Assembly: GCA_024679065.1 (NCBI GenBank)
Contig: JAGIQG010000016.1
Span: 8,556,001 to 8,620,000, forward strand
Direction: 5' to 3'
Source: Sphyrna mokarran
Taxonomy: Eukaryota
DNA: 64,000 nt
Shown here: piece by piece, positions 1,711-63,979 of the stretch
Layout of the letters: every line of letters starts with the position of its first letter
How positions within the stretch are numbered: position 1 is the stretch's first letter
Notes under the pieces: model-generated
The model's input: only the letters and a program-made list of their open reading frames with translations
What the model was told of the DNA's origin: nothing
Databases searched by the model: none
Program-made: the position numbers and the translations under genes

Positions 1711-2225
1711 CTAAACTAGGGTTAAGGTGCCATCAGGGCGCGTGGTGACCCAGAGTTTGAAGACAGGGTAAACTTTGCCTGTGAGTTTGGCATTGAAGGT
1801 ATGCACATGGGCTCCGTTCTCTGGGTTGTAGAAGGACACCCGTCCTTCCTTGTTGTCCACGTAGACCCCCAGTTTGCTCAGATGGGCCAGCAAGACTGAA
1901 GTGCCCAGCGATCTTACATTTTCCTTGTTCCCTTCGATGTTCCACATCATCAGGGCCCAGTAACTCTCCTTGGCAAACGGTCTGCTCCATCTGTTCATAG
2001 GTCGGACACTCTGGGAGACTCCGACGCTCCAGACTGTCCCTGGGCTGGCTGACACCTCCCAGTATTGCTTGCCAGGAGGAACACCGTCGCTTGCCCAGAT
2101 TGTCCAACTGTCCGCAAATTTTAGCTTCTTGATTGCTGCTACTGTGTCACTCCAGCCGACGCTTTTCTTGTCTTTGCCAAAGACGAATCGTGGATCAGCA
2201 TTTTCATTATCGAACACAATCGGAA
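1711..2225 (-). CDS. Terminal exon encoding a B30.2 (PRY-SPRY) domain of a butyrophilin-like/TRIM-like gene
   Basis: The ORF has B30.2 hallmarks: VPIVFDNENADPRF (equivalent to VTLDPxTAxPxL), GKQYWEV, WSVGV, YWAL, LGVYVDNKEGRVSFYN, HVHTF, KVYPVF. The acceptor ctctttttgtttaccag precedes 2225 and the exon starts in phase 1. TAG stop at 1711-1713. Length 515 nt = 2 + 171 codons. Confidence 0.93.
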
Positions 2226-3091
2226 CTGGTAAACAAAAAGAGAAGAAAAATGAGCATTGTATTCATGCAATTGTGCACAGTTCACAAAATAAATAATCAA
2301 CCCCTTTAAAGCAGCAGTAACAATGTGCAAAATTTCTTTTGTACTTTAACCTGTCACCTTTTGTTCTTTCCCCTGAATCATTTCTAAATTACAACGCACA
2401 TACTTTATCCATAAAATATCTAATATAACTTTGCAAAATACTTCCAAGTAGTCATGAAAGGAAGTGCAAGGAGATACATATATCTACATTATTGTTGTTT
2501 TAGGAGCTACAAATTGATAAAATTAACATTACATTTTCAAATATATTCGCTGTATTAAATTCAACTATGTTTATATTAGCTGCATGCTTTTTTTTCCAAT
2601 ATAAGGAGCTTCCAATCATTAATAGTAACATCACATGCACAATTAGGAAAATGATGACCCCCCCCACCCCCACCCCTTACAGGACGTAGCTCCATATTCT
2701 CCCGTCTGAGGCTCAAGCTGCAGTATATTTATGACAAAAAGTTGTTTCCTTCTCTGGAGTTTCACCCAGCTGGCTACTTTATCTGATTCCCTGTTCAAAG
2801 AATCTTCGCATCTCTACAAGTGCCTCTCAGAGACCATCAAAAAAATCTCCTTACCTCAGGAGGTTAAAAAAAAAACTACACTTCGCAATTACTTAAAATT
2901 TTCCCTCATCTCATCACGCGTTGCGTTTCCACGAACTGCTGGAGTGACTCATATTATGAATTAGGGGAGGGTAGTCGGTGACAGTCGAGCGATTGGAGAC
3001 ATCTAGAAGGAGATGTGGCTATTCTAAGGAAAGTAAAAGGGGAGGGGGGCGGGGTTGGGGAGACTGTGAAGCAGAATCCGTTATGGCTTAC

Positions 3092-3118
3092 CTTTATGCT
3101 TCGTTAGAACTTTCCATT
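3092..3118 (-). CDS. 27-nt microexon (E)WKVLTKHK, penultimate exon
   Basis: actattactag|AATGGAAAGTTCTAACGAAGCATAAAG|gtaagc; phase 1-1; resembles the 27-nt EWK-type exon that precedes B30.2 in butyrophilins. Confidence 0.88.
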
Positions 3119-3275
3119 CTAGTAATAGTCATGTGGATAGCAGAAAAGAGAGGACAGTGAAACATCCCCAAAATCCATACTTATTACAGCTCTATTTCAT
3201 TAATACTATCTGCCTGTAAGTGGAAATCGCTCTCTCATATTTAGGACTTAAGATCTTGAGCTTAATGGAGTTCAA

Positions 3276-3545
3276 AGAATCCATGCAGTGTAGAAAGAGG
3301 CCATTCGGTCCATCGATCCGCACTGTTCACCATTCCACCCAGGCCCTATTTGTGTAACGCCCCACATTTATCCTGCGAATTTACCTGATACTAAGGATTA
3401 ATTTATCGAGGCCAATCAACCTAACCCGCATACATTAAATGTGGGAGGAAGTCAGAGCACGCAGATACGGGGAAAACGTGCAATCTCTTCGCAGAAGTTA
3501 TCCGAGACGCAGTGAGGTAATAACGCAAAACACTGTGCCACCTTT
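3276..3545 (-). mobile_element. tRNA-derived HE1/V-type SINE
   Basis: Reverse complement of the SINE at 31160-31490 (gaggccattcggtcc...tgtgggaggaa...cactgtgccacc). Confidence 0.7.
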
Positions 3546-3686
3546 CTGAGCTTTCGATTGAAAGGATACAAACTTTGACCAATCCCACACGTGGAAACAC
3601 TGAGGAAACGCTTTATTTTTAGTAAATTATTAAACCGAGGATCTTTTCAACCTGTCATCGCGGATCTGCTAAGCAAGAGTGTAGAA

Positions 3687-3816
3687 CATCCATCAGAATA
3701 TCACTGTTCCCTCAAAAATTCTATAGAAATTTTGACTAAAACCAACGGTCCATCCATCAGAATATCACTGTCCCCCCCAAAAAAATCTATAGAAGTTTTG
3801 ATTAGAACCAACGGTC
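3687..3816. repeat. Tandem duplication of a ~65-bp unit
   Basis: catccatcagaatatcactg...ctatagaa...accaacggtc occurs at 3687-3750 and 3751-3816. Confidence 0.9.
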
Positions 3817-4419
3817 ATCAAACAACGTCCCACAAAACACACACAGTGGGGCACAAATTGTCGGGGCAGAAAAAAATTAAGTAAGCCATTGGTTGACCCA
3901 TTATCAATTAAGCACAATCCACTTGGAGTAATGATCTGGGTCAGGCTTTTAACCGCTTTCATCCAAAAACCTGATGCCATCTTGATTTTACCAGTATCGA
4001 TCTCCACCTCCCATTTCCAAAATCAATACTAATTGAACACCACTTGTTGCGGCGGGTGTGGGGGGGGGGGAGGTGGTGGTGGGGGGGAGAGGTGAGTCGA
4101 GGGGTGTTGGGGGTTTGCTACTGATGGTGTCATGACGAATTCCTCCGCTGCATTAGAACGAAATGGATATTTCCTTCTTTTGTCCCATAAGCTTCTGGAT
4201 CCCAGGCAATAAAAATGGTGGTGACACTTCTATAACTAATGAAACGGAGTTTTTTGTTAATTTAATTTTGCTGATAAATCATGAATTTATATTGAGGATA
4301 CATTTTCACTGGCCTTATAGTCCAGGAACGGTGAATGAAGAAAAGTATCCCTTTGCATTTTATGTGACCATCCTCCATGTATTTACATGGCTAACCAGCA
4401 CACAGTTTTGATACTTTAC

Positions 4420-6110
4420 AGATTGATGAATATGCTGTGTATTTTCAAAATCACTGATAGTGGAGATTTTTTTAAATATTCAGGCATAGAAGTTGCTTTC
4501 ATAATCATGTATATGTGAGATGTTATTATGCAAATGAATCTATGGAAGCTTTTTAACCCACAGTGATTAGTGGTCGATTTTCATATTTATGTCCATTGGA
4601 GATTTTGCACTTGTTGTTTGCTCTGGGAATGTTTGTTCAGTTTGTTAGACATTTATCGTTCATGTAGATTGTTTGAGAGATGTTGGGATGGATATTTTCT
4701 GTGCTGACGAATAGGGGAGATGATTTCTTAATTTATGACAACGGAAATCTTTTCATGGTCATGTATATCTATGCTATATTCACACTGATGGAGATGAGAG
4801 GGGTTTTTGGATGTGACAGATATTTTCTGAACTGAAAGACGAGGAAGATATTTCTCAAACTGATGGTTACCTGAACTATTTTACACAATGGATGGAAGGT
4901 CATTTTTCAAATTATGTCCCATGTTTTCATGATCATACAATCTTCATCATGAAACCTATGGGAAAAATATTCATTCTAAAGGGTATGGGAGATGTTGTTT
5001 AATGATGGGAATAGGTGATAACTTTGTGTCAAAGGATCGGACTGACATTTTGTAATGATATGTATTGGCAGCATTTTAGTGTTGGTTGTAATATGGAATG
5101 ACTTCATACTGCTGGATATGGGCGATTCTTTCATATTGATGGAGCTGGGTGATGCTTTTAATACTGTTGTATATGGCCAAACTTTCACACTGATGGATAT
5201 GGTACATATTTTCAGTCAGATGGATGGATTGCTAGACAAGCAAAATGCTTTCATGATATTGGTCATGGCCGTTGGAAATCCACAATTCTTTGTATTGATG
5301 GGCACTTGAGATGCTTTCATTCTCACATGGGCCACATTTTCATGTTAATATATATGGTAAATTTTATATATTCATGGACATAGACGATATTTCCATACTG
5401 ATGGATATGGGCGATATTTTTTCTTTGATATATATGGACGATATTTACGTGATGGTCTATATGAAGCATATGCTCATACTGATTGGTATGTGGGATGCTT
5501 TCATACTGATGAATTAGGAGATATTTTAATACACCTGGTTATAGTAATGCACATGCAGAATTTCGTCATACTAATTGTCAAAGTATATATATTCATTCCT
5601 GATGTTTATGACCATGTTTTCATGCTGGTAGATGTGGCTGATATTTTCACACATCGATATGGACGAAATTCCCATGCTGACGGATATCACCATTGCTTTC
5701 ACATCAATAAATATACAACATTTTTCAACCTGATGGATATAGGCGACGGGTTCATATTGATTGATACGAACAATACTTCCATGCAAATGTAAGTGGCTGA
5801 ATTGTTAATTCTCAAATATGAGGAATACGATTCGATTTCAATTGATCTGGATAATATTGCCATAAAGACTAAATAGATGAAGTTTTCATACTGTTGGATA
5901 TGGTTGGTGATTTCATTCGTAGGGAATGGGAACAGGTTTTCATCCAAATTAACGTGGTTAATATAATTCTACTGACATGTATGGGACGCATCTTTGTATT
6001 GATGAATGTGGTCAAAGTTTGATGGACATGGGCAATCTTACAACTGATGGGTTGAGAGGGGTTTTCAGACTGATGAATGTGGAGATATTTTAAGCAGGTC
6101 AATAAGCACA
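4420..6110. repeat. Decayed minisatellite, unit about 27 bp (consensus near ATACTGATGGATATGGGCGATATTTTC)
   Basis: Recurring ctgatggatatgg..gatattttca motifs; spurious ORFs show 9-aa periodicity (ILMDMGDIF). Confidence 0.75.
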
Positions 6111-6559: not shown

Positions 6560-6607
6560 CTGTAACCAAACGGAAAATTGTCGCACCTTTGGCAGGATCC
6601 ACGCAAC
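6560..6607 (-). CDS. 48-nt exon (G)CVDPAKGATIFRLVT
   Basis: cccttcttaactccacacag|GTTGCGTG...TTGGTTACAG|gtataa; phase 1-1, no stop. Confidence 0.72.
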
Positions 6608-9410: not shown

Positions 9411-9446
9411 CTGCATCACTTGCATCTTGAAGCTTACTCTCGAGTT
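9411..9446 (-). CDS. 36-nt microexon (E)LESKLQDASDA
   Basis: tctctacctttcag|AACTCGAGAGTAAGCTTCAAGATGCAAGTGATGCAG|gtaaga; phase 1-1. Confidence 0.85.
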
Positions 9447-14120: not shown

Positions 14121-14147
14121 CTAGAAGTTTGGAACGGGTATCAGCTG
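14121..14147 (-). CDS. 27-nt microexon (A)ADTRSKLL (NAGNAG acceptor could give 24 nt)
   Basis: gtccaactcag|CAGCTGATACCCGTTCCAAACTTCTAG|gtaagt; phase 1-1. Confidence 0.75.
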   Translation of the reverse strand, partial: QLIPVPNF

Positions 14148-19156: not shown

Positions 19157-19192
19157 CTTTATCTTTACCCGCGTCCTTCAGCTTCTGGAGTT
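19157..19192 (-). CDS. 36-nt microexon (K)LQKLKDAGKDK
   Basis: ggtttcttcgttag|AACTCCAGAAGCTGAAGGACGCGGGTAAAGATAAAG|gttagt; phase 1-1. Confidence 0.82.
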
Positions 19193-19884
19193 CTAACGAA
19201 GAAACCATGGACAAATCACTAGGTGCGGGTGTACAGCAGATTAGAATAACTATTCTGTCCTATACTTCGTACAAAATTAAAGCTTAGTCTTTGTAAAAGA
19301 AATGCATCAGTCTTTTTTTTTGTTTAATTACCCAAGATTGTTTCTTCCAAATCTTTTTCTAAAGAAGGAAGAACAAAATTTTATTCGACCTGCACAATAA
19401 GCATTACTCATCTGCTCGTCGTGCGTGACAGCTAATCAAAAAAAAAAATCAAACACAACTCATAACCTGATGCAGGATCAAATTTGCACAATGTATGAAT
19501 TAAGTGTAACTTCAAGCTTCATGAGCGATTTTGGTTATCTGAATGCCTTGGTTAGATAGCAGAGAAAAATATATAGATCTTGAACCCAAATATTTTGCTG
19601 ATAGAACATTTCGAACTCCCTGTACTATTCGAGGTGACATACATGAGACAACATTCAGGAGCTACATATGCACATTTCCGATTTTCATGCAGATTGGGTC
19701 AAATGCATTAAACACAGAAACACATTCTCCTCTCGATATTAGAATCAGAGATCTCGATACCTCCACATAGAGTGTTCTGGGGAATTAGTTAACACTGTAT
19801 CCAGGTTTGTCTTCCATTTTACCTGATAAGTCAATCTGTAATTTTAAAATATCTCACATCGTTCGCTATTTATTTTATGTACAC

Positions 19885-20735: not shown

Positions 20736-20762
20736 TGCATTTTGCGTTGATGGTTTCAAGTT
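20736..20762 (-). CDS. 27-nt microexon (E)LETINAKC
   Basis: ttttgcattctacatgtag|AACTTGAAACCATCAACGCAAAATGCA|gtaagt; phase 1-1. Confidence 0.82.
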
Positions 20763-22025: not shown

Positions 22026-22052
22026 CAATCGTTTTTTGTCGTAACTGTTCCT
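22026..22052 (-). CDS. 27-nt microexon (E)EQLRQKTI
   Basis: tcttcctactcttatag|AGGAACAGTTACGACAAAAAACGATTG|gtaaga; phase 1-1. Confidence 0.85.
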
Positions 22053-23037
22053 CTATAAGAGTAGGAAGACTTTTCATTGGTTGTTGGAAACGAATCAGAA
22101 AAATACAACGTCCAAATCCAAATTTACCGAGGCAATGCATGATCCTGCATGCCGTTATTTTATAATTCTGAAGTATTCCATTTCTATGCTTTCCGGCAAT
22201 TCAAAGTCAATAGATATTCCATCTGGAACGAGGATAAAATTTCGAGATTTTACCAAGTGCATCAATAGAAACGTGACATTTTATAGACTAAGAAGAAACA
22301 GTTTTGAGTTACAGGATGATCCCATACTTAAAAGGAATAAAAAACGGATAGATTTGGGATGATTGATATAAGTCCAAAAAATATTGGGCATGGGCTTGAA
22401 TAGATCTATAGTGCGCCCGCAATGGATTGAATCATGCGTCTCTATCAATGAAATGCATTATTTCTATATTGCCGAATGCTGTCACCTAGCAGTGAGTTTT
22501 CTGACGAAACCTCGACAAAACCATTCCTCGACGTCAAGTTTACCCTTGGAATGTATTTGCAATTGTCTTTGAAAACACATATCGTTAGACTAGGACACAA
22601 TTCTAAGCCTTGGTACTACTTAACCGTTCCGTGGTGTTTTCAGCGTTGCTCAGCTACGTTCTAAGTGCTCGAATTGATTACTTAACAGCCAACTCAAATT
22701 ACAAACCAAACCTGTCAATCTATGTGCCATTAATCGATCAGCCTGATCAACGTTTTGATCAGCTGCAAAATTTAGGAACCATTTTTGTGAAGTATGATTC
22801 CTGACATCATCCTTGAGCAAAGTAATTGAATTCTCAACTTCTCAAATTCGCGATCTGACCCCACATGTAACAATATTTCTTCAACTGCTGGAGAAAATAT
22901 TTTATCAAATGCACGCTTATCTTCAGCATTCAAAGCAATATAATAGAGCCATGTTTAATCGCTGCTGCTCATTTCAACCTTTATTTGGATGATTCCGAAT
23001 TGCACTTAAGAGAAGTCTTCTATATTTTCGTTATGAT

Positions 23038-23994
23038 GTGATGGACACACGCATCTCCATCAAGGACGGTCACCTCAGCACCTCACTGTACCGCAAACCG
23101 ACAGACAACCTCACAATGCTCCACTTCTCCAGCTTCCACCCTAGACACGTTAAAGAAGCCATTCCCTATGGACAAGCCCTCCGTATACACAGAATTTGCT
23201 CAGATGAGGAGGATCGTGACAGACACCTCCAGACACTGAAGGATGCACTCGTGAGAACAGGATATGGCGCTCGACTCATCGATCGACAGTTCCAACGTGC
23301 CACAACGATAAACCGCACTGATCTCCTCAGAAGACGAACACGGGACACGGTGGACAGAGTACCCTTTGTTGTCCAGTACTTCCCCGGAGCGGAGAAGCTA
23401 CGACATCTTCTCCGGAGTCTTCAACATATCATTGATGACGATGAACATCTCGCTAGGGCCATCCCCACCCCCCCACTTCTTGCTTTCAGACAACCGCACA
23501 ACCTCAAACAGATCATTGTTCGCAGCAAACTACCCAACCTTCAGGAGAACAGTGACCACAATACCACACAACCCTGCCACAGCAACCTCTGCAAGACATG
23601 CCGGATCATAGACATGGACGACATCATCAAACGTGAGGATACCATTCACCAGGTGCACGGTACATACTCTTGCAACTCGGCCAACGTTGTCTACCTAATA
23701 CGTTGCAAGAAAGGATGTCCCGAAGCATGGTATATTGGGGAGACCATGCAGACACTACGACAGCGGATGAATGAGCATCGCTCAACAATCACCAGGCAAA
23801 ACAGTTCCCTTCCTGTGGGCGAACACTTCAGCAGTCATGGGCATTCGGCCTCCGACCTGCGGGTAAATGTTCTTCAAGGGGGCTTTCGTGATACACGACA
23901 GCGCAGAGTCGCTGAACAGAGACTGATAGCCAAGCTCCGCACACATGAGGACGGTCTTAACAGGGATCTTGGCTTCATGACACACTATCTGTAA
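23038..23994 (+). CDS. Penelope ORF C-terminal part: RT thumb, Cys-rich linker and GIY-YIG endonuclease (5'-truncated, apparent start is a junction artefact)
   Basis: TSLYRKPTD..LHFSSFHP..AIPYGQALRIHRICS; PCHSNLCKTC; NVVYLIRC..WYIGET..LRQRMNEH; VGEHF; GLNRD. Confidence 0.9.
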   Translation: MMDTRISIKDGHLSTSLYRKPTDNLTMLHFSSFHPRHVKEAIPYGQALRIHRICSDEEDRDRHLQTLKDALVRTGYGARLIDRQFQRATTINRTDLLRRRTRDTVDRVPFVVQYFPGAEKLRHLLRSLQHIIDDDEHLARAIPTPPLLAFRQPHNLKQIIVRSKLPNLQENSDHNTTQPCHSNLCKTCRIIDMDDIIKREDTIHQVHGTYSCNSANVVYLIRCKKGCPEAWYIGETMQTLRQRMNEHRSTITRQNSSLPVGEHFSSHGHSASDLRVNVLQGGFRDTRQRRVAEQRLIAKLRTHEDGLNRDLGFMTHYL

Positions 23995-27093: not shown

Positions 27094-27129
27094 CCAATTC
27101 CTTCAATTTTTTAAAATATAATTCTCTCT
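27094..27129 (-). CDS. 36-nt microexon (E)RELYFKKLKEL
   Basis: tttgatcgtctttcag|AGAGAGAATTATATTTTAAAAAATTGAAGGAATTGG|gtgaga; phase 1-1. Confidence 0.83.
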
Positions 27130-29860: not shown

Positions 29861-29887
29861 CTTTTCCTTTCTTTTTCAAATCTTCTT
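29861..29887 (-). CDS. 27-nt microexon (E)EDLKKKGK
   Basis: ttccgtgttcccacag|AAGAAGATTTGAAAAAGAAAGGAAAAG|gtgagt; phase 1-1. Confidence 0.87.
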
Positions 29888-33464: not shown

Positions 33465-33500
33465 CTAAATCTTGTAGTTTCTTTTTCAATATTTCTGTTT
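33465..33500 (-). CDS. 36-nt microexon (E)TEILKKKLQDL
   Basis: cattttctttttcag|AAACAGAAATATTGAAAAAGAAACTACAAGATTTAG|gtgaga; phase 1-1. Confidence 0.88.
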
Positions 33501-36228: not shown

Positions 36229-36255
36229 CACGTTGCAGCTTCTCCATTTGTTCAT
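36229..36255 (-). CDS. 27-nt microexon (D)EQMEKLQR
   Basis: cttgtgttttaatacag|ATGAACAAATGGAGAAGCTGCAACGTG|gtaaga; phase 1-1. Confidence 0.85.
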
Positions 36256-36397
36256 CTGTATTAAAACACAAGCAAACCATTTGGATTAATAGCAGAAACT
36301 TCTGGAAAAGAACTTCACGCCTGGTTCTATATGACAAGATTGGAAAAAATATCATTTTGTTGCACTTTCCTCAAAATTCGACAATATTACGAAAAAA

Positions 36398-37290
36398 ATA
36401 GCAGAACCCAAGGACAGGTAGCTAGATGGATAAGTAACTGGCTTGGTAATAGGAGACAGAGAGTAATAGTGGAAGGGTGTTTTTCTAGCTGGAGGTCGGT
36501 CACTAGTGGTGTGGCACAGGGCTCAGTACTGGGACTTCTTCTATTTGTAATGTATATAAATGACTTGGAAGAGGGAGTAAGTGGAGTGATTAACAAGTTT
36601 TCAGACAATACAAAAATGGCTGGACTTGCGATAGTGAGGAACATTGCCAGGCCATACAGCAGGACATAGATAGGCTGGTAGATTGGGCAGATAGATGGCA
36701 GATAGAACTCAATCGTGAAAAATGCGAGGTGATGCATTTTGGGACAAAGAATGTAGGGGGAGGTATATGATAAGGGCAGACCTATTAAGAGTATAGAAAC
36801 GCAGAGGGACCTGGGGATGCAGGTGCACAAGCCTCTCAAGGTGGCAGAGCAGGTGGGGAAGGTTGTGAAGAAAGCATACGGAACACTAGCCTTTATAGGA
36901 AGGGGTATGGAGGACAAGAGCTGGATTTTAATGTTGCAGTTGTATAGAACGTTGGTTAGACCTCATTTGGAATACTGTGTCCTGTTCTGGTCGCCTTACT
37001 ACTGGAAGGTGTGGAGACTCTGGAGACAGTGCGGAGGATGTTTACCAGGATGCTGCCTGGTATGGAAAGTCTGAGTTACGAGGAGAGGTTAGGCAAATTG
37101 GGGCTGTTTTCTTTAGAAAGACGTAGACTTAGAGGAGATCTAATAGAGGTGTACAAAATTATGAGGGGTATAGATCGAGTAAATAATGGGAACCTTCTTC
37201 CTGGGTTGGAATCAAATATCACGGGTTTAGGGTGAGGGACGTAAGGTATAATTTGGATGCTAGAGGGAGTTTTTTCACATAGAGCGTTGT
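36398..37290 (+). mobile_element. CR1 LINE RT fragment with frameshifts
   Basis: WISNWLGNRRQRV..VTSGVAQGSVLG..FVMYINDL..KFSDNTK; LYRTLVRPHLEYC; [17 protein letters not shown]. Confidence 0.92.
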
Positions 37291-40840: not shown

Positions 40841-40867
40841 CTTTCATTCCACCCTTCTTCTTTAGTT
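40841..40867 (-). CDS. 27-nt microexon (E)LKKKGGMK
   Basis: atatgttgaatttag|AACTAAAGAAGAAGGGTGGAATGAAAG|gtaagc; phase 1-1. Confidence 0.8.
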
Positions 40868-42933: not shown

Positions 42934-42960
42934 CTTCTTGATCTGAGATCATTTTTCGTT
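42934..42960 (-). CDS. 27-nt microexon (E)RKMISDQE
   Basis: ttcataattatcttag|AACGAAAAATGATCTCAGATCAAGAAG|gtaagg; phase 1-1. Confidence 0.82.
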
Positions 42961-44344: not shown

Positions 44345-44380
44345 CAGACTCTTGAAGCTTCTTTCTCAGCTTTTCCAGTT
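44345..44380 (-). CDS. 36-nt microexon (E)LEKLRKKLQES
   Basis: ccatcccccctaag|AACTGGAAAAGCTGAGAAAGAAGCTTCAAGAGTCTG|gtgagc; phase 1-1; resembles exon 33465-33500. Confidence 0.87.
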
Positions 44381-44576
44381 CTTAGGGGGGATGGCGGTTG
44401 TTTATGTTGGGGAGAAGGCGTTGAGGTGGCGTGAGTGAGTGAACAAAAAACAAACGTTAATATTTACGACTGAACATGAAAAATATTTTTCTCTATTCAA
44501 CCAATGGTAATAGAGCAGAAAATTATCTCCATTGTAGCACAGAGAGGCTGGTTTGGATTTCTTATCTGACTGAATC

Positions 44577-46600
44577 AGGCGAGGAGGAAATGGTCGAGTA
44601 AGAGAACCTTGGTGTACAAAAAAAGTTGATTTGCTGGTTAAAAGGAAAAAGGAGGCTTATGTCAGGATGAGGCTTGAAGGCTCGGTTAGTGCAATGGATA
44701 GCTATAGATTAGCCAGGAGGGAGCTAAAGAGTGAAGTGAGGAGAGCTAAGAGAGGACACGAGAAGACTTTGGCTGATAGGATTAAGGAGAATCCTAAAGC
44801 TTTCTTTAGATATGTTAAGAATAGAAGATTGGTTAGGGCAAGATTAGGGCCAGTCATAGACAGCAGTGGGAAGTTGTGCGTGGAGCTGAAGAGATTGGAG
44901 AGGCACTGAATAAATATTTCTCTTCGGTATTCACGCAGGGTGATGTAAATGTAGTTATGGAGAACACTGAGGTACAGGGTAGCAAACTGGAAAGTATCGA
45001 AGTAGATAGGGAGGATGGGCTAGATATTCTCGAGGGTTTGAAGTTGGATAAGTCCCCTGGGCCGGACGGGATTTACCCTAGGATTCTCTGGGAGGCAAGA
45101 GAGGAGATTGCAGAGCCTCTGGCTCTGATCTTCAGGCCGTCGTTGGTTACAGGCGTGGTTCCGGAGGACTGGAGGATAACGAATGTGGTCCCGTTGTTCA
45201 AGAAGGGGAAGAGAGACCTTCCAGGGAATTATAGGCCAGTGAGTCTTACTTCTGTGGTGGGCAAAGTGTTGGAGAGAATAATTAGGGATAGGATTTATAG
45301 TTATTTAGAGAGTAATGAATTGATTGGAGATAGTCAGCATGGTTTTGTGAAGGGTAGGTCGTGACTTACTAACCTCATTGAGTTTTTTGAAAAAGTGACT
45401 AAGGAGGTGGATGGGGGTAAGGCGGTTGATGTGGTATATATGGACTTTAGTAGGCGTTTGATAAGGTGGCCCATGGAAGACTTCTGCAGAAAATGCAGAT
45501 GTATGGGATAGAGGGTGATTTAGCTAATTGGATTAGGAATTGGCTAGCGAATAGAAGACAGAGGGTGGTGGTTGATGGGAGATATTCATCATGGAGTTCG
45601 GTGACAAGTGGTGTACCTCAGGGGTCTGTTTTGGGGCCCTGCTGTTTGTAATTTTTATAAATGATCTGGATGAGGGTATTGAAGGATGGATTAGTAAATT
45701 TGCAGATGACACTAAAGTCGGTGGAGTGGTAGATAGTAAAGAGGGGGGTTATAGTTTGCAGAGGGACTTGGACAAGTTGCAGAGCTGGGCCGAGAGGTGG
45801 CAAATGGAGTTTAATGTGGAAAAGTGTGAGGTAATGCACTATGGCAGAAATAATAAATGTGTAGAGTATAGGGCTAATGGTAGGATTCTTAGTAGTATTG
45901 ATGAACAGAGGGATCTTGGTGTGTATGTGCATAGATCCCTGAAAGTAGGCAGTCAAGTCGAGAAGGTTGTTAAGAAGGCATATGGAGTCTTAGCTTTTCT
46001 TGGTAGGGGGATTGAATTTCGGAGCCGCAACGTCATGTTGCAACTGTACAACACTCTAGTGCGGCCGCACTTGGAGTATTGTGTGCAGTTCTGGTCCCCA
46101 CATTATAAGAAAGATGTGGAGGCATTGGAGAGGGTACAGAGGAGGTTTACCAGGATGTTGCTGGTATGGAGGGCAGGTCTTATGAAGAGAGGCTGAGGGA
46201 TTTGAGGTTGTTTTTGTTAGAAAGGAGGCGGCTAAGAGGGGACCTAATCGCAACATATAAGATGATTAGAGGTTTAGATAGGGTGGACAGTGATAGCCTT
46301 TTTCCTAGGATGGAGAAAGCTAGACGAGGGGACACAGCTTTAAATTAAGGGGTGATAGTTATAGGACGGATATCAGAGGCAGGTTCTTTACCCAAAGGGT
46401 GATTCGGGAGTGGAATGCCCTGCCTGCAGCGGTTGTAGATGCGCCAAGTTTGGTGGCGTTTAAGAGGTTAGTTGATAAGTATATGGAAGAGAAGGGAATG
46501 GGTTAGTTTGGAGGGGCATTGCTTTTTATATTGGTCGGCGCAACATCGAAGGCCGAAGGGCCTGTTCTGTGCTGTAGTGTTCTATGTTCTATGTTCTATG
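44577..46600 (+). mobile_element. Young 5'-truncated CR1 LINE (about 2 kb of ORF2 RT plus tail)
   Basis: KSPGPDGIYPR, NVVPLFKKG..NYRPVSLTSVVGK, SQHGF, SGVPQGSVLG, FADDTK; (ttctatg)n tail; few frameshifts. Confidence 0.96.
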
Positions 46601-47353: not shown

Positions 47354-47380
47354 CTCTGTCTTTCTTGCCTAGTTGTTGTT
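47354..47380 (-). CDS. 27-nt microexon (E)QQLGKKDR
   Basis: taatatcccttgtag|AACAACAACTAGGCAAGAAAGACAGAG|gtaatt; phase 1-1. Confidence 0.83.
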
Positions 47381-49519: not shown

Positions 49520-49555
49520 CTTGATCACTGACGTCTTCTTTAAGCTTTTGAATTT
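49520..49555 (-). CDS. 36-nt microexon (E)IQKLKEDVSDQ
   Basis: ttgtttcccctgttag|AAATTCAAAAGCTTAAAGAAGACGTCAGTGATCAAG|gtgaac; phase 1-1. Confidence 0.85.
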
Positions 49556-50346: not shown

Positions 50347-50364
50347 CTGCAGTTGTTTTTTTTT
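50347..50364 (-). CDS. 18-nt microexon (E)KKTTA
   Basis: attaattcaattttag|AAAAAAAAACAACTGCAG|gtgaag; phase 1-1 only if the 9-A run is called correctly. Confidence 0.55.
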
Positions 50365-52525: not shown

Positions 52526-52544
52526 TCCAAATAAGGCACCATTC

Positions 52545-53468: not shown

Positions 53469-53495
53469 CCTTCTGTTTCATTCTCAAGCTTTCCT
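53469..53495 (-). CDS. 27-nt microexon (E)ESLRMKQK
   Basis: cctttgcatattgcag|AGGAAAGCTTGAGAATGAAACAGAAGG|gtaagt; phase 1-1. Confidence 0.85.
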
Positions 53496-56229
53496 CTGCA
53501 ATATGCAAAGGTTTTTTTTTAAATTATTGTCATGATGTTAGAAGAGCAATCACTTCATTTTAGTGGGTATAAAGAATCCTGCCTGCTTAATGCCGTTATG
53601 TATGTACGACATATATGTAAGACATTATCTCACGCTAATTTATCTCATCCTATTCATAGAGCACCTTTATTTTTCTATACAGCATCTAACCAACGCAAAC
53701 TTGAATAACCCGTGTTGGTATATTATGACTCTCTACCATTACTCATATCAGAAATGAAAATGTATTGATGATGATGATGATGACGATGAATATCGTGACG
53801 TTGTTAATGGTTGTCTTTCGAGTTTATGGAATATGTTAAATATGAGAACTCATCTGTAATTAGCAGAATTTGTTTATTTAGTCCAAGCCTAAAGTCACAG
53901 AGCTGGACACAGTTGACTAATTGGTAGTCATCACTTGTGATGTGGACAAAAGCTGTTCTATGATATTGTTTACAAGGAACAATAATATGTTGACTTGGAT
54001 AATTTGCAAGTATGAAAGGATCATTACAGATCAGTGCACTCCAGTGTGTTCCTGCCGTACTCATTTTTCCTCTTCATGACCTTCATATCATATCACATCA
54101 GCTTGTCTGCCTTCCATAATATTTTCTATGAACGAGGTGTTTCTTTAAGATGTTCCATCACAGTTATGTTTTTACTTAGGTATTAGGTATCTTTCCAATT
54201 GCTTTTCTTCCAAAAGTGTTTTGTTGCAGCCATGCGTTGTGAGGAGGATTGTGAGAGTTCCCATCGTGTAGTAACTCCATGTTAACTGAATTTATTGCTA
54301 CTGAGAACAGTTATACATTTTCTGTAATGCTAAGTTCCATTAAAGGTATTGGGCTTCAGCAAGGACGGAAATTATTATCATTCTCCAGCTGAAGAATCAA
54401 AGTTTGTTTTTCGGCTCTGTTTGAGTATATGCCCTAATAGCGTTAGATTCCTTTGCAGTTATCCCATCTTATGTTACCTGAGTATTTTAACTGCGTTTTG
54501 TTTTATATTTTCAAATTGCACTCGATATAATAGATATATTCATTCTCCAGGGGATGAAATAGTAACGTAATTCTGGATATGTGATGCACACATGGTGGAT
54601 GAACAAATTTTGAATATTGGCATTGATCATAAAATAATTGCACTGACCGCAGTTCAGATTACTGTTCCGTTGTTTCTCCAATTCTGTTGAGAAAACGAGA
54701 AATATTAAATTGTTATTTCTTTATAGCTCACTATAAAGTGCAGCAACGAAAAAAAAAAGAAATTATGTTGAGCAAGTTCGAAGATGGAATCGTGTTTTTT
54801 CATAATTGATCACTCTCTGACAGAGCCAATGCGCGCACTGGAATCAATGGAATATGTAAAACAGTATTATAAGAACGAATGGAAGAGAAGCGTGGCTTAA
54901 GAAACAGTATGAATTAGGGTTACATGAAAGAACGCTCTGGAGTAAGAGTTAGTGAATATGAGGGCATTGTCGGAAAAAGATTTAACAGACGAGCATAAAG
55001 TAGTTATATCGTAATCAATTGCATTGTAACGCAATAATTGCACGGACAAGTGTTGTCTTTTATTTTTTTAATGGGGTATAGGCACATCTGAGCAGGCAAC
55101 GATTCATTGTCCCTCTGTAAGTGTCCCTCAGAAATTTGTGCTATGCTGACTTCTTGAACCGTTGAGATCAGCGTGGTCCAGGAACACAGACAATGCTCCC
55201 GCAACAGCATTCAGGATTATGATTAAGCGAAGTGAAGGAAAAAAAAATATAATTTTAAGTCTGAGAAGTTTGAATGGCGCATATCTCAATATATGTGTTG
55301 CCATAGTCTTTCGGGTGGCATGGATCTCGCGTTTGAAGATGCCATTCACGATGCTCCCACAAGTTGCTGCAATGAAACACAACAAATACTTTGTATTTTT
55401 CTGAAACATGCATTGCAAAGCATTGTTGTCCTGTACTTTCTTCCAGATACGTTCTAATAAACATCTGTTATCCTTTCTTGTACTCTCTGCATATTCTTCC
55501 TGATGTTATTTTTTGCCCAGTGAATAACTACATAAACTTAGTGTAGCAAGAAGTTTACAGAAATGTGAAATTAGCTCTTATCATTTCATGACCCAGCACA
55601 CGAGGAAAAATATTAATATTTCATTATAATTAGATTTTAACCTAACCAGTCAACCAAACCTGCATGAATCATTGTAAGAAAAATGTAAACATATGAATGT
55701 AGGATAACTTAAGTTGTGACGAACAACTGTTGTAGTATGCGGGCAAAGAAATATAATTGGAACTATAAATTATTTCTCATATAAGTTCTGAAAACCGTAA
55801 ATCTACAGGGACACCATTATAAACAGCAAACAATCTGAACCATCCGAAAAAAGAACGTTAGACTTTTGGCTTGGGTTGACATTTTGAAAGGCGTGCTGAA
55901 ATTCTAAAGTTATGGATACAAATTCCACTGTAGCAACGCCTGCAACATATACTTTGTATACGTTTGGTATCTACAGGAAGCTTTTTTTTTAATCGTCCCG
56001 ATGAGCTCCATTGTTGTAATAGCATTTGAATTGCCAATGCACTTTAGCGGAGGATAGCTACTCAGTGTGGCATAAATGTGATTTCAGATCCAAGGGAATT
56101 TAGATGTTTCTTAATTCGCGACTATTGAGAACCAAATACCATCTTTCAGCGAATTCTACAATCCATGAATGAAAATAATGTCAAAGACGAAACGTTTACG
56201 CATTAAACAGAATGTTTAAATTATCTTAC

Positions 56230-56256
56230 CTTTTTCTTTCTTTGCCAGGATTTGGT
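56230..56256 (-). CDS. 27-nt microexon (D)QILAKKEK
   Basis: tgtacttctggctag|ACCAAATCCTGGCAAAGAAAGAAAAAG|gtaaga; phase 1-1. Confidence 0.85.
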
Positions 56257-59141: not shown

Positions 59142-60209
59142 ATCTGGTCGTGGATATACAGTCACCTGGGGAATGCGGAGTACTCTGTCCACTACACACC
59201 AGACGAGCCTCTTTTGACAGAGATGAGAATTCCGAATGTTTGAAACTCTTGCGAAAAAAATGGCGTCATGCAGATGCATTCACTATACTTTTTCTACGGA
59301 AGATCTGGAGATATTGTTGGAAAATGAAGGAGCAATATGTCACTGCGTGTATGCGAGGTGGAGATTTAGTACTAATATCAAACCAGTCACGATCTTATCC
59401 AATGTGGGAGGGAAAATGGGACTCGGAGAGGGCTCACTGGGGCCGAATAGATTGCTCTTTCATTGTATGTTCATAGGTTCTTCTGACAACCCTAGAGTTA
59501 ATTTAGCTCATGCCGGGTTTCCACCTTCGGATATTTCCATGCAGGCACAACCTAATAGAGCTACCCAGATAAGTCGATTTTCAGTGATGATCCAAAGTGT
59601 GTTTATGGCGGGGAAGTAGAAGATCGTAATGTGATTGAATATCAAAATGCAATACATGGTTTAAATTATCTTGGAACTGGTCGTTCTCCTGAACTTACGT
59701 TATGCAAATTATAATCAGTCGCCAAAGCTTGAAAGTTTTCAACTTCGATTCAGGTCAATGTTTCAGTCCTCGTGGAAAACATATCATGTTGAATTATTGG
59801 TCACCATCAGCGATTATGTTCACTGTTGACATTTTGTTGGGGGATGCAATAGCTGAAATATATGGGACTATAGCTTTATGAAAATTAACATTTGTAACAT
59901 TGTTTTGAGTCTCAGATGGTTCGCCAACAAAATGGCAAACAGTCTTTCGTTTACACGGCATGGTTCGAATGAGTAGATGCATTTGACACAAATCTGTTCC
60001 GCCTATCCTCTCACCCGCAAATACACATTGAATATGTTTTTCTTACAACTCTTCTAAGCACGTTAAATGAATTTGGCTAGGCATTTCATCTCTTAGCACG
60101 TGAACATACAAGAATTACTTGCATTTCTATCTGAACTACGAATTGCAGAATGTGGGCATCTGGATTTTAATAACGTTAATGAATACATATGGATAATGCA
60201 TTTATTTAC

Positions 60210-60245
60210 CTTTAGCTTCCAGGCTTTCCTTTAATTCGTTGCATT
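60210..60245 (-). CDS. 36-nt microexon (E)CNELKESLEAK
   Basis: ttactgatgtaatatgcag|AATGCAACGAATTAAAGGAAAGCCTGGAAGCTAAAG|gtaaat; phase 1-1. Confidence 0.85.
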
Positions 60246-61277
60246 CTGCATATTACATCAGTAAGAAGCGTTATATTTTGTGATGTTAGCTGATAGCTAA
60301 TGCAATACAAACAAGAGCGAAGCTAATTGTTAAAAAAAAATAATCTTTGAACCAATTCACATAGTGCAACGCAGAAACGTGAACTGGGGATGAACCTGGA
60401 TATTTTTGTTTGGACTTTTTGTTGAAAAGTCCCATTGTATGTAAAGATATAATATCCTTTCTAGGAAACATTCAACTCATTCCCTGTGATTAATGTGGTT
60501 CCACACGACAATTGTAAGCCTTCGTTTTCTAGAGATTCATGAACAAGGTTGAATAATTTATTTCCGTTGGTAAGTTACCTGGCATGTCCAAAACTTGCAG
60601 GGGTACCAGTGACGTCGAAAGATGAATGAAAATTTATTTTCTCTGCCTATCTGATTTTTTTAATGTTTATTCATTTTTTTCGTTATCTGGATAAACTTAG
60701 CGGGCTCTTTATTATTAATGACGCCAGTTCAGGTTAACTGTAAATTCATCCATTTGTAATATTGAATCAGTTGAGCTAGTCATGGAAATGTTTCAGGTTT
60801 CTTTTTCTCTTTAACGGGGTACAATATGAATCGAGAACATCAGGAAACAGAGTTCAAAACTAGTTAACAAAACTAGCATCGATTGCTTATTCATGCGGAC
60901 AATTAAGCACCAAACTCAATGTTTCTCGATCTCGATTCACATATACGAAAGACGAGGACAGGGCAACAGCATAGCTTCACTAATGGACGTTAGTGACTCA
61001 ATGTTGTCATGAAATAGGCAATACTTTAATGATCATAATTAGCTGTTCTATTTTAGATAATTTTGAATTCAATGCAGTGGGAGATTGAAGCCAGATCCCA
61101 GAGAATTATTCTGGGATCATGGGTGACTCGCCCATCGAATACAGCAGAACGCCACAGTTTCCCCACAGAGGGATTTTAATGCACAAGTATTGAGTAGACA
61201 GTAATTCGCACGATGTGAGAATATATCCATGTGTATCTGGATAAAGATTCTTCCGTGTATGTGGTTACATGCGTGCC

Positions 61278-61304
61278 TGTGTGTGTGTGTGTGTGTGTGT
61301 GTGT
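61278..61304. repeat. (GT)n microsatellite
   Basis: Direct reading. Confidence 0.9.
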
Positions 61305-63952
61305 TTCTGACTGCATCTTTGTATTGGTGTGCTATTATATTTGTGTCTACATTTGAGCTTTATTTATGAATTTCTATTTGCAATTATGTTTGCTCTTTCA
61401 GTGAACTACATAGATTAATTGAAGCTAGTTACTGATAACAGCTGTAGGAGTTAATTCAGAAACCTAATTTAATATGGTCACTGCTTACCTGGACTCAGCT
61501 CAGTTCTTTGTTTAAACAATACACATTCAAACATATTGATTGGCTACAGGGGCCGGGATGAGCAACTCCTGATTGCTTTTGAATATAAACTACATGGCCA
61601 AGGCCTACATGCAAAAAAAGTTTAATCTTGTACTGAAGTCTGTATTAAGATTTCAAAAAAATGTGAAACCAAATAAATTATTTAAAGAACAAACTGGTAA
61701 GTTAATAAGCAAACTATAAGTATGGCAAAAAGATTATTTATCTAAGATGGAGCATACGAAAGGTGCTGACATTATCCAGACCAAAGAAAACACGGTTAAT
61801 GTTTTATCTTGAGGATCTTCAGCTCAGATACCTTTAGCTGGAGGTTGAGCTACAGCTATTTTGATAAACAGCGTCTGCGAGTACTTTGGATGTTTTGTAA
61901 TGTTAAATTCCAATCATTTGTTTTCTCTTGTCAGGCCTGTTAAAGTTCCAGGGTTTTAGCTCTACAATGTATTTCTTTTGATTAATAGCATCGACGTTCG
62001 ATGAAATACAGATTGAGATTTTGAGATTGAAGGGTTCAAAAATATACGGAGACACGTGCCCTCATGTCTTGATTCTGCCAGTAATATGGGCCATTATTAT
62101 CATTTTATGGTCTAGAAAGGTAGAAGGGGTTTAAGATGCTTTCTTTTACACAGAAAATAGTCATGATTACAGCTCGCTCTCACTAATATGGTTGAAGTAA
62201 AGAATCATCAAACGTTTCAGCAATGAATTTAATGGAGACTTCAGTGAAACAAACCTGCAAAAAGTTGGTAATAGTGCAGTGGGAGTGACTGCATAGTTCT
62301 GAAGAGGGCATAATGAAATAAGTATGCCCAGTAACTTTAAAAAAAAAGTTCTGTATTTTAAAGCGAAGAACACAAATGTGTTCTTCATGTGAATACCAGC
62401 TGTCGCTTCTGTAACTTCATGTACTGAGGATTATTTTAGTATAGTAATGACAATCTTTCAAAGACTCGATGAACAAAAGTCATTTTTATGGAAATTACTT
62501 GAAGGGACGATTCAAATTGAGGGTAAACCAGGCAAACTGTGGCAAAGAAATGGGGGGTGGGTGGGTTGTGGGGTTGGGAGGAGAGGCGGGGGAGGTGGTT
62601 GGGGTGGGGTGTGGAATGACGTTGCACCCAGGTAAATCACTTAACCTTTCATTGCAATTAAAGCATAACTTGATCACAACCATTTAATGAGACAGGAAAA
62701 GACTACTTGGACTTTATTTCTGCGCTATTCGGAAGGAAAAAAAAGCAGCGAGCATGTCAAATTCCAATTTCCAACATTGCGTTCCTAGAATTGCAACATT
62801 CTGCATTTGAATTCAATGCTCAATCAGTTATTCAATGTTTTGAGGGTTTCAGTCTCGATTACATTTCCAAGCAGGAATTCCCACACCACAATAACTACCT
62901 GGTGACTTATCCCTTCCCCTACCCCAATCTTCCCCCTAATGATTTTGTCAATTACGTTGAAGATACATCTTATATTCCAAGATCATTGAGCTATATGAAA
63001 ATAAGCCCAGTTCTTCCAATCTCTCGAGGCTCCTCATAAATTTATGCATCCCAAAGACATCTTTCTCAACCTCACATTTCCTGGCAGAGTAGGTTGGCCT
63101 ATCAAACCTGTGTTTGAATTTTGCAATTTCCCAATTATTGCAGCATTCTCGTAAATATCCACTATGCCCTCCAAATTGCACGCGAATCTTGTCTGCAATG
63201 TGGTCTCTACAACTACTCGCAAATATTGAATGAAGTAGGGTTTGATTTCGTTGCAGATTAATTATCTCATCTTCTACAGTCTGCTTTGGCGAACAAATGA
63301 CATAATCCCAAAAGCCTTTCTAAACAATTTATCAAAATATCCTGCTACCTGCAGAAACATTTGGACAATCATCCCAACGTCCCTCATGTAAAGTACATTA
63401 ACGACTTTCTACACATATTTGCTTAGATAATGTCGATTATCTATTGATCATAGTTGGCTCTCTCAGCTTGGCGCATAGGACACGGGACGATTTCTACTGT
63501 CAAGGACACAAAATGGATAACATCATTACTTTCGGTCGGATATTGCTAATATTTGGACAAGAGTGGTTATCTACTATGGATTACGCGATCTCACATTTGC
63601 CGCGGTGATTACATCATCTAAATGTAATTCTATCGGACTGGTGGTCATGTCAGTAAAGAAGACCATCCCGGCACTGGCTGCCTGAAAGAAATAAGGTTTA
63701 TTTTTAATTAAATAAAGAAAAAAAAATAAAAAGTTCCCTCATTGACTTGTTTCCTATCATCTTTGATAATAGCGATACATTTGTAACATTTGTCATACCC
63801 GTACGAAACCAAATAGTGCTTTGGAAGGGAGATAATTAAAAAAAAAATAATGTTAACCCTCCGGTGCAAGGACAGATAATTTGCGTTGAAGCAGCAATTT
63901 TCCAAAACATCGTGTTTCCTTGAAAAAAAAATCTGTTCATTTGCATGCTTAC

Positions 63953-63979
63953 CCCTATCTTTGCGGCTAAAATTTAGAC
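63953..63979 (-). CDS. 27-nt microexon (x)LNFSRKDR; gene continues beyond the window end
   Basis: tttatgcttcaccag|GTCTAAATTTTAGCCGCAAAGATAGGG|gtaagc; phase 1-1; ends in KDR like exon 47354-47380. Confidence 0.75.

What the first reader, a model, noticed from the sequence alone, without database searches (positions are those of the whole stretch)
1711..63979. Hidden B30.2 gene whose ~214-aa coiled coil is built from at least 21 symmetric microexons across 61 kb
Seen: 21 short AG...GT segments (in transcript order 27,36,27,27,18,36,27,36,27,27,27,36,27,36,27,27,36,27,36,48,27 nt), all on the minus strand and all phase 1-1, separated by 0.8-5 kb introns. They concatenate without a stop into an E/K/L-rich helix in frame with B30.2, and most junction codons are G+AA/AG (Glu). 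Established: mammalian butyrophilins have a few 21-27-nt heptad exons between the TM segment and B30.2; chicken BG genes have many 21-nt cytoplasmic exons but no B30.2. Inference: this gene combines a BG-like microexon array with a BTN-like B30.2, in a probable cartilaginous fish. Any subset of exons can be skipped in frame, so splicing could act as a ruler setting stalk length and dimer register. Gene predictors would probably report only a lone SPRY exon.
Basis: partly seen in the sequence, partly recalled or inferred. Interest (0 to 1): 0.9.

Follow-up and report, generated by a model that had tools for sequence, protein, structure and literature searches.

The report
Giant shark microexon rod-B30.2 gene
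The tiny segments are very likely real exons from the last 7% of a roughly 940-kb cartilaginous-fish gene, one of six in a cluster. About 160 predicted mini-exons would spell a long coiled-coil rod ending in a B30.2 binding domain, and the protein is likely secreted rather than a butyrophilin receptor.

Summary
A model trained outside the window finds 16-20 exons of 27/36 nt on the minus strand and 0 on plus. The window holds 23 microexons, not 21: two were missed and the "48" is 21 nt. The array continues about 815 kb beyond the window (about 158 exons identified, at least 1,470 aa). Five paralogous arrays lie within 6 Mb. A 36+27-nt pair encodes three heptads, and native exon order preserves register, so single-exon skips would break the heptad; a splicing ruler would work in 21-residue steps. 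The B30.2 falls in a well-supported clade whose named database members are all cartilaginous-fish proteins, with no Ig, transmembrane, RING or B-box in the members scanned. None was found at the 5' end here either. A candidate two-exon signal peptide resembles the leader of a chimaera relative. Best reading: a likely secreted rod-and-head multivalent binder, not a butyrophilin. There is no transcript evidence. The scan noted this family before in two other genomes, and nine literature searches listed no paper describing it.

The parts
1711..2228 (-). Terminal coding exon: B30.2 (PRY-SPRY) domain and stop codon
   Evidence: Pfam SPRY 1.5e-11; AlphaFold2 beta-sandwich pLDDT 78.8; Foldseek to TRIM7/TRIM21/BTN3A1 B30.2, TM 0.73-0.81
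3092..3118 (-). 27-nt microexon (last)
   Evidence: both splice sites conserved in paralog 2
6587..6607 (-).
   Evidence: 21-nt donor conserved in 2 of 2 paralogs, 48-nt donor in 0 of 2
9411..9446 (-). 36-nt microexon
   Evidence: counterpart in paralog 2
14121..14147 (-). 27-nt microexon
   Evidence: colinear DNA match in paralog 2
19157..19192 (-). 36-nt microexon
   Evidence: paralog match
19332..19358 (-). 27-nt microexon, followed by a 139-nt intron
   Evidence: paralog match 79%
20736..20762 (-).
   Evidence: paralog match 78-87%
22026..22052 (-). 27-nt microexon
27094..27129 (-). 36-nt microexon
29861..29887 (-). 27-nt microexon
33465..33500 (-). 36-nt microexon
36229..36255 (-). 27-nt microexon
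40841..40867 (-). 27-nt microexon
42934..42960 (-). 27-nt microexon
44345..44380 (-). 36-nt microexon
47354..47380 (-). 27-nt microexon
49520..49555 (-). 36-nt microexon
50347..50364 (-). 18-nt microexon (weaker support)
53469..53495 (-). 27-nt microexon
54648..54683 (-).
56230..56256 (-). 27-nt microexon
60210..60245 (-). 36-nt microexon
63953..63979 (-). 27-nt microexon (good splice sites, atypical peptide; not picked by the trained model at score 5)
63980..64000 (-). Intron running off the window edge. The gene continues beyond it on G000:C668 (-): 124 more 27/36-nt exons to 9,259,796, 3 more in a sample at 9.29-9.30 Mb, 21-nt exons (8 seen) from about 9.34 Mb to 9,433,670, a candidate 120-nt second coding exon at 9,466,804-9,466,685, and a candidate first coding exon at 9,496,758-9,496,655 (ATG 9,496,682 plus 28 nt). 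110 kb inside were not fetched.
   Evidence: second exon: best phase 1-1 exon of 45-330 nt in 90 kb, 11.8 vs best plus-strand 9.0, single-copy; first exon: most hydrophobic of 23 candidates, best match to the chimaera leader, single-copy; both predicted only

Best explanation
The window is the 3' end of a predicted ~940-kb gene whose ~160 or more symmetric phase-1 microexons would encode a coiled-coil rod of at least 1,470 residues capped by one B30.2 domain, and the protein is likely secreted through a two-exon signal peptide and likely acts as a long multivalent binder. Shown by sequence: the exon array and its strand bias, the frame continuous with B30.2, the B30.2 fold, a 21-residue unit (36+27 nt, three heptads, junction Glu at the e/g positions), an order of exons that keeps register, five paralogous arrays on the same contig, and absence of Ig/TM/RING/B-box where tested. 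Inferred: that all exons belong to one transcript; the leader and secretion (about 0.6); parallel oligomers, possibly Cys-linked, placing the heads together at the end of a rod of 220 nm or more (about 0.15 nm per residue, established value); length tuning by skipping 36+27 pairs or 21-nt exons, with single skips making hinges. The least certain step is the ligand. My best guess is innate recognition or cross-linking of a surface (collectin/ficolin-like logic, recalled); a structural fibre role is nearly as likely.
For: Held-out enrichment 16-20 vs 0. Across 704 kb, 143 exons vs 3 on the plus strand, with length peaks of 55 and 55 at 27 and 36 nt vs 3 and 3 (these counts include the 39 training exons). 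Large hydrophobics at codons 1/4/8 of 36-nt exons (82/57/69%) and codon 3 of 27-nt exons (72%); 36/27 alternation 97 vs 70+-5.8. 3.5-residue periodicity in native order 22.1 vs 9.2+-2.9 for shuffled exon order, p=0.001; full model 19.1 vs 10.7+-1.4. 27-nt exons change their hydrophobic phase with the preceding exon, p=0.001-0.012. A 36-nt-exon pattern gave 36 hits on C668; 35 lie within 1 Mb upstream of, and on the strand of, one of six B30.2 exons, 27 of them in the five paralogs not used to design it; 0.32 expected. Colinear exon-limited conservation with paralog 2. A 15-member clade with support 1.0 among 151 domains. RefSeq relatives are coiled coil + SPRY only, and the skate one models as long helices + B30.2. 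Internal isoform deletions in relatives are 9, 6, 9, 9 and 7 residues, all beginning with Asp or Ala as G-split codons would. Leader: skate and chimaera models start with a 13-residue uncharged run. The exon-1 length (28 nt) was fixed in advance from those leaders and then found. The predicted leader scores 26 against the chimaera leader, and 0 of 193 other N-termini reach that (max 25, mean 13.9). Cys clusters at the two d positions of 36-nt exons (18 of 36 Cys).
Against: No transcript or protein evidence for this gene in any call. 5 of 7 longer relatives lack a leader, although such models are unreliable at the 5' end (one catshark model contains a segment matching the LINE-like repeats in this gene's introns). 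The leader match is marginal (26 vs max 25), and against the skate leader it is unremarkable (10 of 193 score as high). A genome-wide pattern for the leader exon hit none of the six 5' ends (88 hits vs 66 control), and no convincing leader was found for paralog 6. N-glycosylation sequons are not enriched (4 vs 5.6 expected), and the B30.2 has no Cys and no sequon. The chimaera leader is followed by a basic cluster, which also fits a membrane anchor with a cytosolic rod. 110 kb inside the gene were not read, and gaps of up to about 39 kb interrupt the array, so two tandem units are not excluded. The 21-residue-unit profile hardly separates family stalks from TRIM coiled coils, so the unit is not shown to be family-wide.
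Confidence: 0.55

Rival explanations
1. Same gene and rod, but intracellular: a RING-less, Ig-less cytosolic or signal-anchored coiled-coil B30.2 protein, acting as a tether or scaffold like the soluble BG-derived 'zipper protein' of gut brush border or (recalled) guinea-pig enterophilins.
For: B30.2 domains of BTN and TRIM proteins are cytosolic (PMC10665462 passages for BTN; TRIM from established knowledge). No sequon enrichment; no Cys in the head. 5 of 7 relatives have no leader; a basic cluster follows the chimaera leader. A soluble BG tail displaces tropomyosin (PMC5938342 passage).
Against: Two relatives and the predicted start here have a hydrophobic leader at residue 1. Acidic residues follow the predicted leader here and in the skate protein, which favours the C-terminus entering the lumen (positive-inside rule, established). 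Cys is placed at core d positions.
Confidence: 0.28
2. One reading: a butyrophilin/BG-like type I membrane receptor (IgV-IgC-TM-heptads-B30.2) with an extreme juxtamembrane stalk.
For: Heptad repeats ahead of B30.2 are the BTN layout. The 5' part of the array uses 21-nt exons like chicken BG. The best profile hit in PDB is BTN3A1 B30.2, E 2e-33 vs TRIM21 7e-28.
Against: 0 of 147 and 0 of 79 sense-strand open frames of 68 aa or more at two 5' ends match an Ig family. Six fish butyrophilin queries hit only the B30.2 exon in the held DNA. No TM segment in 7 of 7 relatives (max KD19 1.34 vs 2.35 and 3.21 in two BTN controls). Atlas clusters of 1277-1802 aa list SPRY/PRY without Ig. Cartilaginous fishes are reported to have separate butyrophilins (PMC12841164 passages).
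Confidence: 0.06
3. A TRIM E3 ligase with a hugely expanded coiled coil, as the RefSeq names (TRIM39-, TRIM58-, TRIM69-, A33-like) suggest.
For: Database names; top Foldseek hit TRIM7; two family members lie inside a large B30.2 cluster on C1548.
Against: No RING or B-box in the family proteins scanned. Seven TRIM-type queries, four from rays, hit only the B30.2 exon. The one weak RING hit (E 0.015, below cut-off) lacks the first and last Cys pairs and follows a stop.
Confidence: 0.05
4. The segments are chance AG..GT matches or relics, and only a lone or silent SPRY exon exists.
For: No expression data. Candidates were filtered for lack of stops. One family member on C1548 has a TGA in its B30.2 match.
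Against: Strand bias, length peaks, codon-position pattern, order-dependent periodicity, paralog conservation and annotated relatives.
Confidence: 0.03

Closest known systems
Annotated but unstudied coiled-coil + SPRY proteins of cartilaginous fishes (XP_055510696 skate, XP_042192744 and XP_042191567 chimaera, XP_038668997 and XP_038672308 catshark, XP_069775385 electric ray, XP_078422387 basking shark)
   Same: Same B30.2 clade (support 1.0), charged helical stalk, no Ig/RING/B-box/TM, isoform deletions of 6-9 residues; two have a hydrophobic leader
   Different: Models are 175-1697 aa and mostly look 5'-truncated or mis-built; names are automatic and misleading; no paper found. The gene here is predicted at about 2,000 aa (my estimate).
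Chicken BG genes (butyrophilin family; PMC5938342, passages read)
   Same: Coiled coil written as an array of short exons with a split first codon (27-38 heptad repeats in the alleles described)
   Different: BG is a membrane protein with IgV + TM, 21-nt exons and no B30.2 (the last recalled). Here the unit is mostly 36+27 nt, there are about five times more exons, there is a B30.2, and no Ig/TM was found.
Butyrophilins BTN2A1/BTN3A (PMC10665462, passages read)
   Same: Coiled coil directly followed by B30.2; same fold (TM about 0.78)
   Different: BTN has IgV-IgC-TM, a juxtamembrane coil modelled as 40 residues and a cytosolic B30.2; 25-26% identity only
TRIM proteins (TRIM7, TRIM21, TRIM39)
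   Same: Coiled coil + PRY-SPRY head; same fold
   Different: No RING or B-box here; rod about ten times longer (TRIM coil length recalled); microexon-built
Vespryns/ohanin (PMC4566206, passages read)
   Same: Precedent for a signal peptide leading to a secreted PRY-SPRY domain
   Different: Short N-terminal extension, no long rod, snake venom; no homology tested beyond the shared domain class
Enterophilins and collectin/ficolin/fibrinogen-type rod-and-head proteins (recalled; 'enterophilin' had 0 occurrences in the 15 papers listed)
   Same: Long heptad zipper + B30.2 (enterophilins); stalk presenting clustered heads (collectins etc.)
   Different: Enterophilins are recalled as cytosolic mammalian proteins; collectins and ficolins use collagen stalks and lectin or fibrinogen heads; analogy only

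Membership tests
B30.2/PRY-SPRY domain proteins | SPRY profile match and beta-sandwich fold | tested here: met
   Pfam 1.5e-11; model and Foldseek TM 0.73-0.81
Butyrophilin/BG | Extracellular IgV (plus or minus IgC) domain | tested here: not met
   110 kb inside the gene, and frames cut by 10-kb stretch ends, not covered; the Pfam frame scan of gene 1 stopped at C668:9.48 Mb
Butyrophilin/BG | Internal transmembrane helix | tested here: not met
   max KD19 after residue 30 is 0.59-1.34 in 7 relatives vs 2.35 and 3.21 in BTN controls; no TM exon evident at the 5' end
Butyrophilin/BG | Heptad coiled coil encoded by short symmetric exons | tested here: met
   unit is 36+27 nt, with 21-nt exons near the 5' end
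Butyrophilin/BG | B30.2 grouping with butyrophilins | tested here: not met
   separate clade, support 1.0, long branch; fish BTN domains outside it; sister group unresolved
Butyrophilin/BG | Phosphoantigen or gamma-delta TCR function | not testable with these tools
   needs binding assays
TRIM | RING and/or B-box before the coiled coil | tested here: not met
Chondrichthyan coiled-coil + B30.2 family (undescribed) | B30.2 in the clade with the skate, catshark, ray and chimaera proteins | tested here: met
Chondrichthyan coiled-coil + B30.2 family (undescribed) | Microexon array upstream on the same strand | tested here: met
   6 of 6 members on C668; for C1548, three 27-nt pattern hits 0.9-1.7 Mb upstream of one member; exon structure of other species not visible here
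Secreted PRY-SPRY proteins (vespryn-like logic) | Cleavable N-terminal signal peptide | tested here: inconclusive
   candidate two-exon leader; 2 of 7 relatives have a leader; negative; no SignalP available
Secreted PRY-SPRY proteins (vespryn-like logic) | Protein found in a secretion | not testable with these tools
   one shark mucus proteome paper has 0 occurrences of TRIM/SPRY/B30/butyrophilin in its main text (PMC10707392); supplements not read

The most novel reading that the evidence does not exclude
Cartilaginous fishes carry a dedicated family (8 B30.2 exons in this genome, shared with chimaeras) of secreted rods 200-300 nm long with B30.2 heads. Each is encoded by up to about 170-190 microexons over as much as 0.9 Mb, and splicing out 36+27-nt pairs sets rod length in 3-nm steps. 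This would be an extracellular use of B30.2 on a programmable-length stalk, among the most exon-rich genes known (recalled comparison), and almost invisible to gene prediction.
Probability: 0.35. Interest if true: 0.88.

Novelty: new variant of a known kind. Interest (0 to 1): 0.72.

Why it matters
A cluster spanning about 6 Mb of a shark chromosome holds six giant genes of a family whose database relatives appear as lone SPRY exons or misnamed TRIMs. The family is shared by sharks, rays and chimaeras, so it predates their split. It shows heptad-exon arrays, known from butyrophilins and chicken BG, carried to an extreme without Ig or TM domains, and probably turned outward. It offers a natural test of how spliceosomes handle 150 or more consecutive microexons across kilobase introns, and of whether splicing tunes the length and hinge points of a coiled coil. 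If secreted, it is a candidate unrecognised component of shark innate defence or extracellular material.

Tried and rejected
Expression: the look-up of sequencing runs listed no RNA holder for window 1400-3200, so no reads were laid; this is not evidence either way. Complex prediction of two copies of the skate relative (residues 20-295): no answer, score 0.01; not evidence either way. Word-index protein searches with the window domain found nothing at near or longer lengths. The alignment search returned 34 proteins; I added 8 of them to the tree, and one (P0164) joined the family clade. Leader candidates rejected: C668:9,190,475 (inside the array, matches five dispersed copies); 9,456,844 (pyrimidine tract plus purine simple repeat, no paralog); 9,469,762 (reads as a LINE fragment by recalled motif). 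In paralog 6, the hydrophobic exon candidate at 13,753,778 lies after a microexon candidate and was left unresolved; my guess that it is the same repeat as the first rejected leader was not borne out. The leader pattern search was negative, and the 21-nt-exon pattern was not above control (8 vs 12). The weak RING hit was rejected. A 24-nt candidate at 24405-24382 has strong splice sites but lowers periodicity (22.1 to 18.9) and was left out. The 21-residue profile on relatives was not discriminating. The first tree lacked two paralogs through a script error and was redone; isoform duplicates and P0004 were left out of both. The tblastx part printed unusable E-values and was ignored. Literature: 9 searches listed no paper on this family; subscription journals and supplements were not covered.

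Full report
WHAT WAS CHECKED. The window is G000:C668:8,556,001-8,620,000. A 171-codon terminal exon on the minus strand (2228-1711) encodes a SPRY domain. It models as a B30.2 beta-sandwich (pLDDT 78.8 for the best of five models, the other four 34-48) and matches TRIM7, TRIM21 and BTN3A1 B30.2 at TM 0.73-0.81 and 19-27% identity. A generic splice scan (frequency tables recalled) shows 27-nt and 36-nt AG..GT segments in excess on the minus strand (10 vs 1 and 6 vs 2). To avoid circularity I trained a model on 39 exons outside the window. Inside the window it finds 16 vs 0 candidates by splice sites alone and 20 vs 0 with composition. The corrected set is 23 exons and 226 codons with no stop.

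THE GENE IS FAR LARGER. The array continues without a second B30.2 (the genome search scored 150 of 185 candidates). In the contiguous 704 kb from the window start there are 143 exons of 27/36 nt against 3 on the plus strand, 1,470 codons. Sampling further shows 27/36-nt exons at C668:9.29 Mb, then 21-nt exons from 9.34 to 9.434 Mb, and no convincing microexon from there to 9.50 Mb or in samples at 9.55 and 9.65 Mb; a sample at 9.80 Mb gave one low-scoring minus-strand candidate. About 158 microexons are identified. With 110 kb unread I estimate 170-190 exons and a protein near 2,000 residues. The span to the candidate first coding exon is 939 kb. That all exons form one transcript is inferred; gaps of up to about 39 kb occur.

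HOW THE ROD IS WRITTEN. The 36-nt exons carry large hydrophobics at codons 1, 4 and 8 (82, 57, 69%), and the 27-nt exons at codon 3 (72%). A 36+27 pair is thus 21 residues with a/d positions at 1, 4, 8, 11, 15 and 18, and the split codon, mostly Glu, at g and e. The two lengths alternate more than chance (97 vs 70+-5.8). Native order gives stronger 3.5-residue periodicity than shuffled order (window 22.1 vs 9.2+-2.9, p=0.001; full model 19.1 vs 10.7+-1.4, 0 of 300 shuffles). The selection model used composition but not residue position beyond the first and last four exon bases. A 27-nt exon after a 36-nt exon has its hydrophobe at codon 3 in 35 of 41 cases; after another 27-nt exon in only 13 of 27, with codons 1 and 4 used instead (10 of 27 each; p=0.001-0.012; neighbours over 8 kb apart were dropped), which reads as built-in stutters. 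Simulated skips lower the local periodicity from 11.3 to 6.3 (27 nt, n=74) or 8.3 (36 nt, n=58), but only to 10.0 for a pair (n=90). Indirect support for real skipping: RefSeq isoforms of relatives differ by internal blocks of 9, 6, 9, 9 and 7 residues, each starting with Asp or Ala (three further differences at N-termini not counted), and an Atlas cluster is named 'isoform X51' (automatic name, membership not verified).

A CLUSTER AND A FAMILY. Six related B30.2 exons lie at C668:8.56-14.32 Mb and two on C1548. A pattern for the 36-nt exon gave 188 genome-wide hits (control 90; only the first 100 listed). Of 36 on C668, 35 lie within 1 Mb upstream of, and on the strand of, one of the six (8, 8, 5, 1, 6, 7), where 0.32 were expected; 27 are in paralogs not used for the design. 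Paralog 2 matches the window colinearly at exons 20762, 19358, 19192, 14147, 6607, 3118 and the terminal exon. Among 151 domains, the window, 6 paralogs and 8 database proteins form a clade with support 1.0 (FastTree, midpoint root). All named members are from skate, catshark, electric ray, basking shark or chimaera. The taxon of the window is inferred from this. Those proteins carry SPRY only (one with a sub-threshold PRY) and no TM segment, and the skate protein models as two long helices plus B30.2. Atlas clusters of 1277, 1579 and 1802 aa with SPRY in 100% of members resemble the chimaera protein (scores 0.90, 0.92, 0.79).

THE 5' END. No Ig, RING or B-box reached Pfam's cut-off in 147 sense frames of C668:9.39-9.48 Mb or in 79 frames covering the interval between paralog 5's B30.2 and the start of paralog 6's array; only retroelement domains did. 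Thirteen BTN and TRIM queries hit only the terminal exon. The strongest phase 1-1 exon in the 5' 90 kb (120 nt, C668:9,466,804) is single-copy and opens with a short hydrophobic run ending in Ala. Lining this up by eye with the skate and chimaera leaders, I predicted a first exon of Met plus 8 hydrophobic residues (28 nt, phase 1). The genome-wide pattern built on it failed, but newly fetched DNA held such an exon at 9,496,682: the most hydrophobic of 23 candidates, single-copy, with A at -3 and a good donor. It is the best of the 23 against the chimaera leader and second against the skate leader. Together the two exons give an 18-residue uncharged run followed by acidic residues. This is suggestive only; the margin over unrelated N-termini is one point, and paralog 6 gave no clear leader.

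MECHANISM. Shown: anatomy, register logic, fold, family, absence of BTN/TRIM modules where tested. Inferred: ER targeting and secretion (about 0.6), parallel oligomers (18 of 36 Cys sit at d positions), heads clustered at the end of a rod of 220 nm or more, and splicing-set length. The head is basic and Trp-rich (21 K+R, 15 D+E, 9 W); its ligand is unknown. I favour multivalent recognition or cross-linking outside the cell. The main rival is an intracellular or membrane-anchored tether (0.28).

WHAT IS KNOWN. I read passages (term look-ups, not whole texts) of PMC5938342 (BG: 21-nt heptad exons, IgV, TM; zipper protein), PMC10665462 (BTN layout, 40-residue coil models), PMC12841164 (butyrophilins reported in cartilaginous fishes; variable heptad number in squamates) and PMC4566206 (vespryn: signal + PRY-SPRY). 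PMC10707392 (shark mucus proteome) has no mention of these domains in its main text. All other papers were seen as search listings only, and no supplements were read; shark proteomic supplements could bear on secretion. Nine searches listed no description of this family. Enterophilins and collectins are recalled. Two earlier scan notes on other genomes reached the same family reading. I saw them after forming mine; they are not independent support.

VERDICT. A real, giant microexon gene of an undescribed chondrichthyan coiled-coil + B30.2 family. It is not a butyrophilin or TRIM by the tests possible here, and it is probably secreted. New variant of a known kind; interest 0.72.

Noticed in passing
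G000:C1548:99,103,312-99,103,836 (-): Likely eighth family member (55% to the basking shark protein; not placed in the tree as a paralog) with one TGA inside the B30.2 match; three 27-nt-exon pattern hits lie upstream at 100.03-100.76 Mb (-). Possibly a broken copy.
   Followed up: partly
G000:C1548:91.8-112.9 Mb: Large cluster of ordinary B30.2 exons (the large majority of the 145 matches); two members of the rod family sit inside it.
   Followed up: no
window 24405-24382 (-): 24-nt segment with strong splice sites and an open frame but atypical peptide; including it lowers heptad periodicity. Possible alternative 'hinge' exon or chance.
   Followed up: partly
window 5442-5371: Intronic stretch that matches paralog 2 at the colinear place (67%, 72 nt) without evident exon boundaries; low-complexity surroundings.
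   Followed up: partly
window 19331-19193: Unusually short 139-nt intron; the paralog keeps a 138-nt intron at the same place.
   Followed up: yes
window 22993-23991 (+): 333-codon CpG-rich open frame that looks like a Penelope-type retroelement end (GIY-YIG-like; label recalled, not scanned), antisense in an intron.
   Followed up: no
window 44574-46193 (+), 36265-37071 (+), 17379-16816 (-): LINE-like reverse-transcriptase fragments in introns (label recalled; similar frames near the 5' end match RVT_1).
   Followed up: no
G000:C668:9,192,000-9,199,000 (-): LTR-retroelement-like open frames (335-503 codons; label recalled) inside an intron of the gene; observed only.
   Followed up: no
protein P0007 (XP_038668997), residues 63-118: This catshark RefSeq model contains a segment that matches the LINE-like repeats in this gene's introns, so its N-terminus is probably a prediction error.
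   Followed up: partly
L107 6758-6651 (-): Candidate first coding exon has two short upstream frames and two donors 4 nt apart; only the first keeps phase 1.
   Followed up: partly
window 1694-1679 (-): Poly(A)-type hexamers 17 and 27 nt after the stop; further hexamers at 1085, 968, 823, 400. The 3' end is not determined.
   Followed up: no
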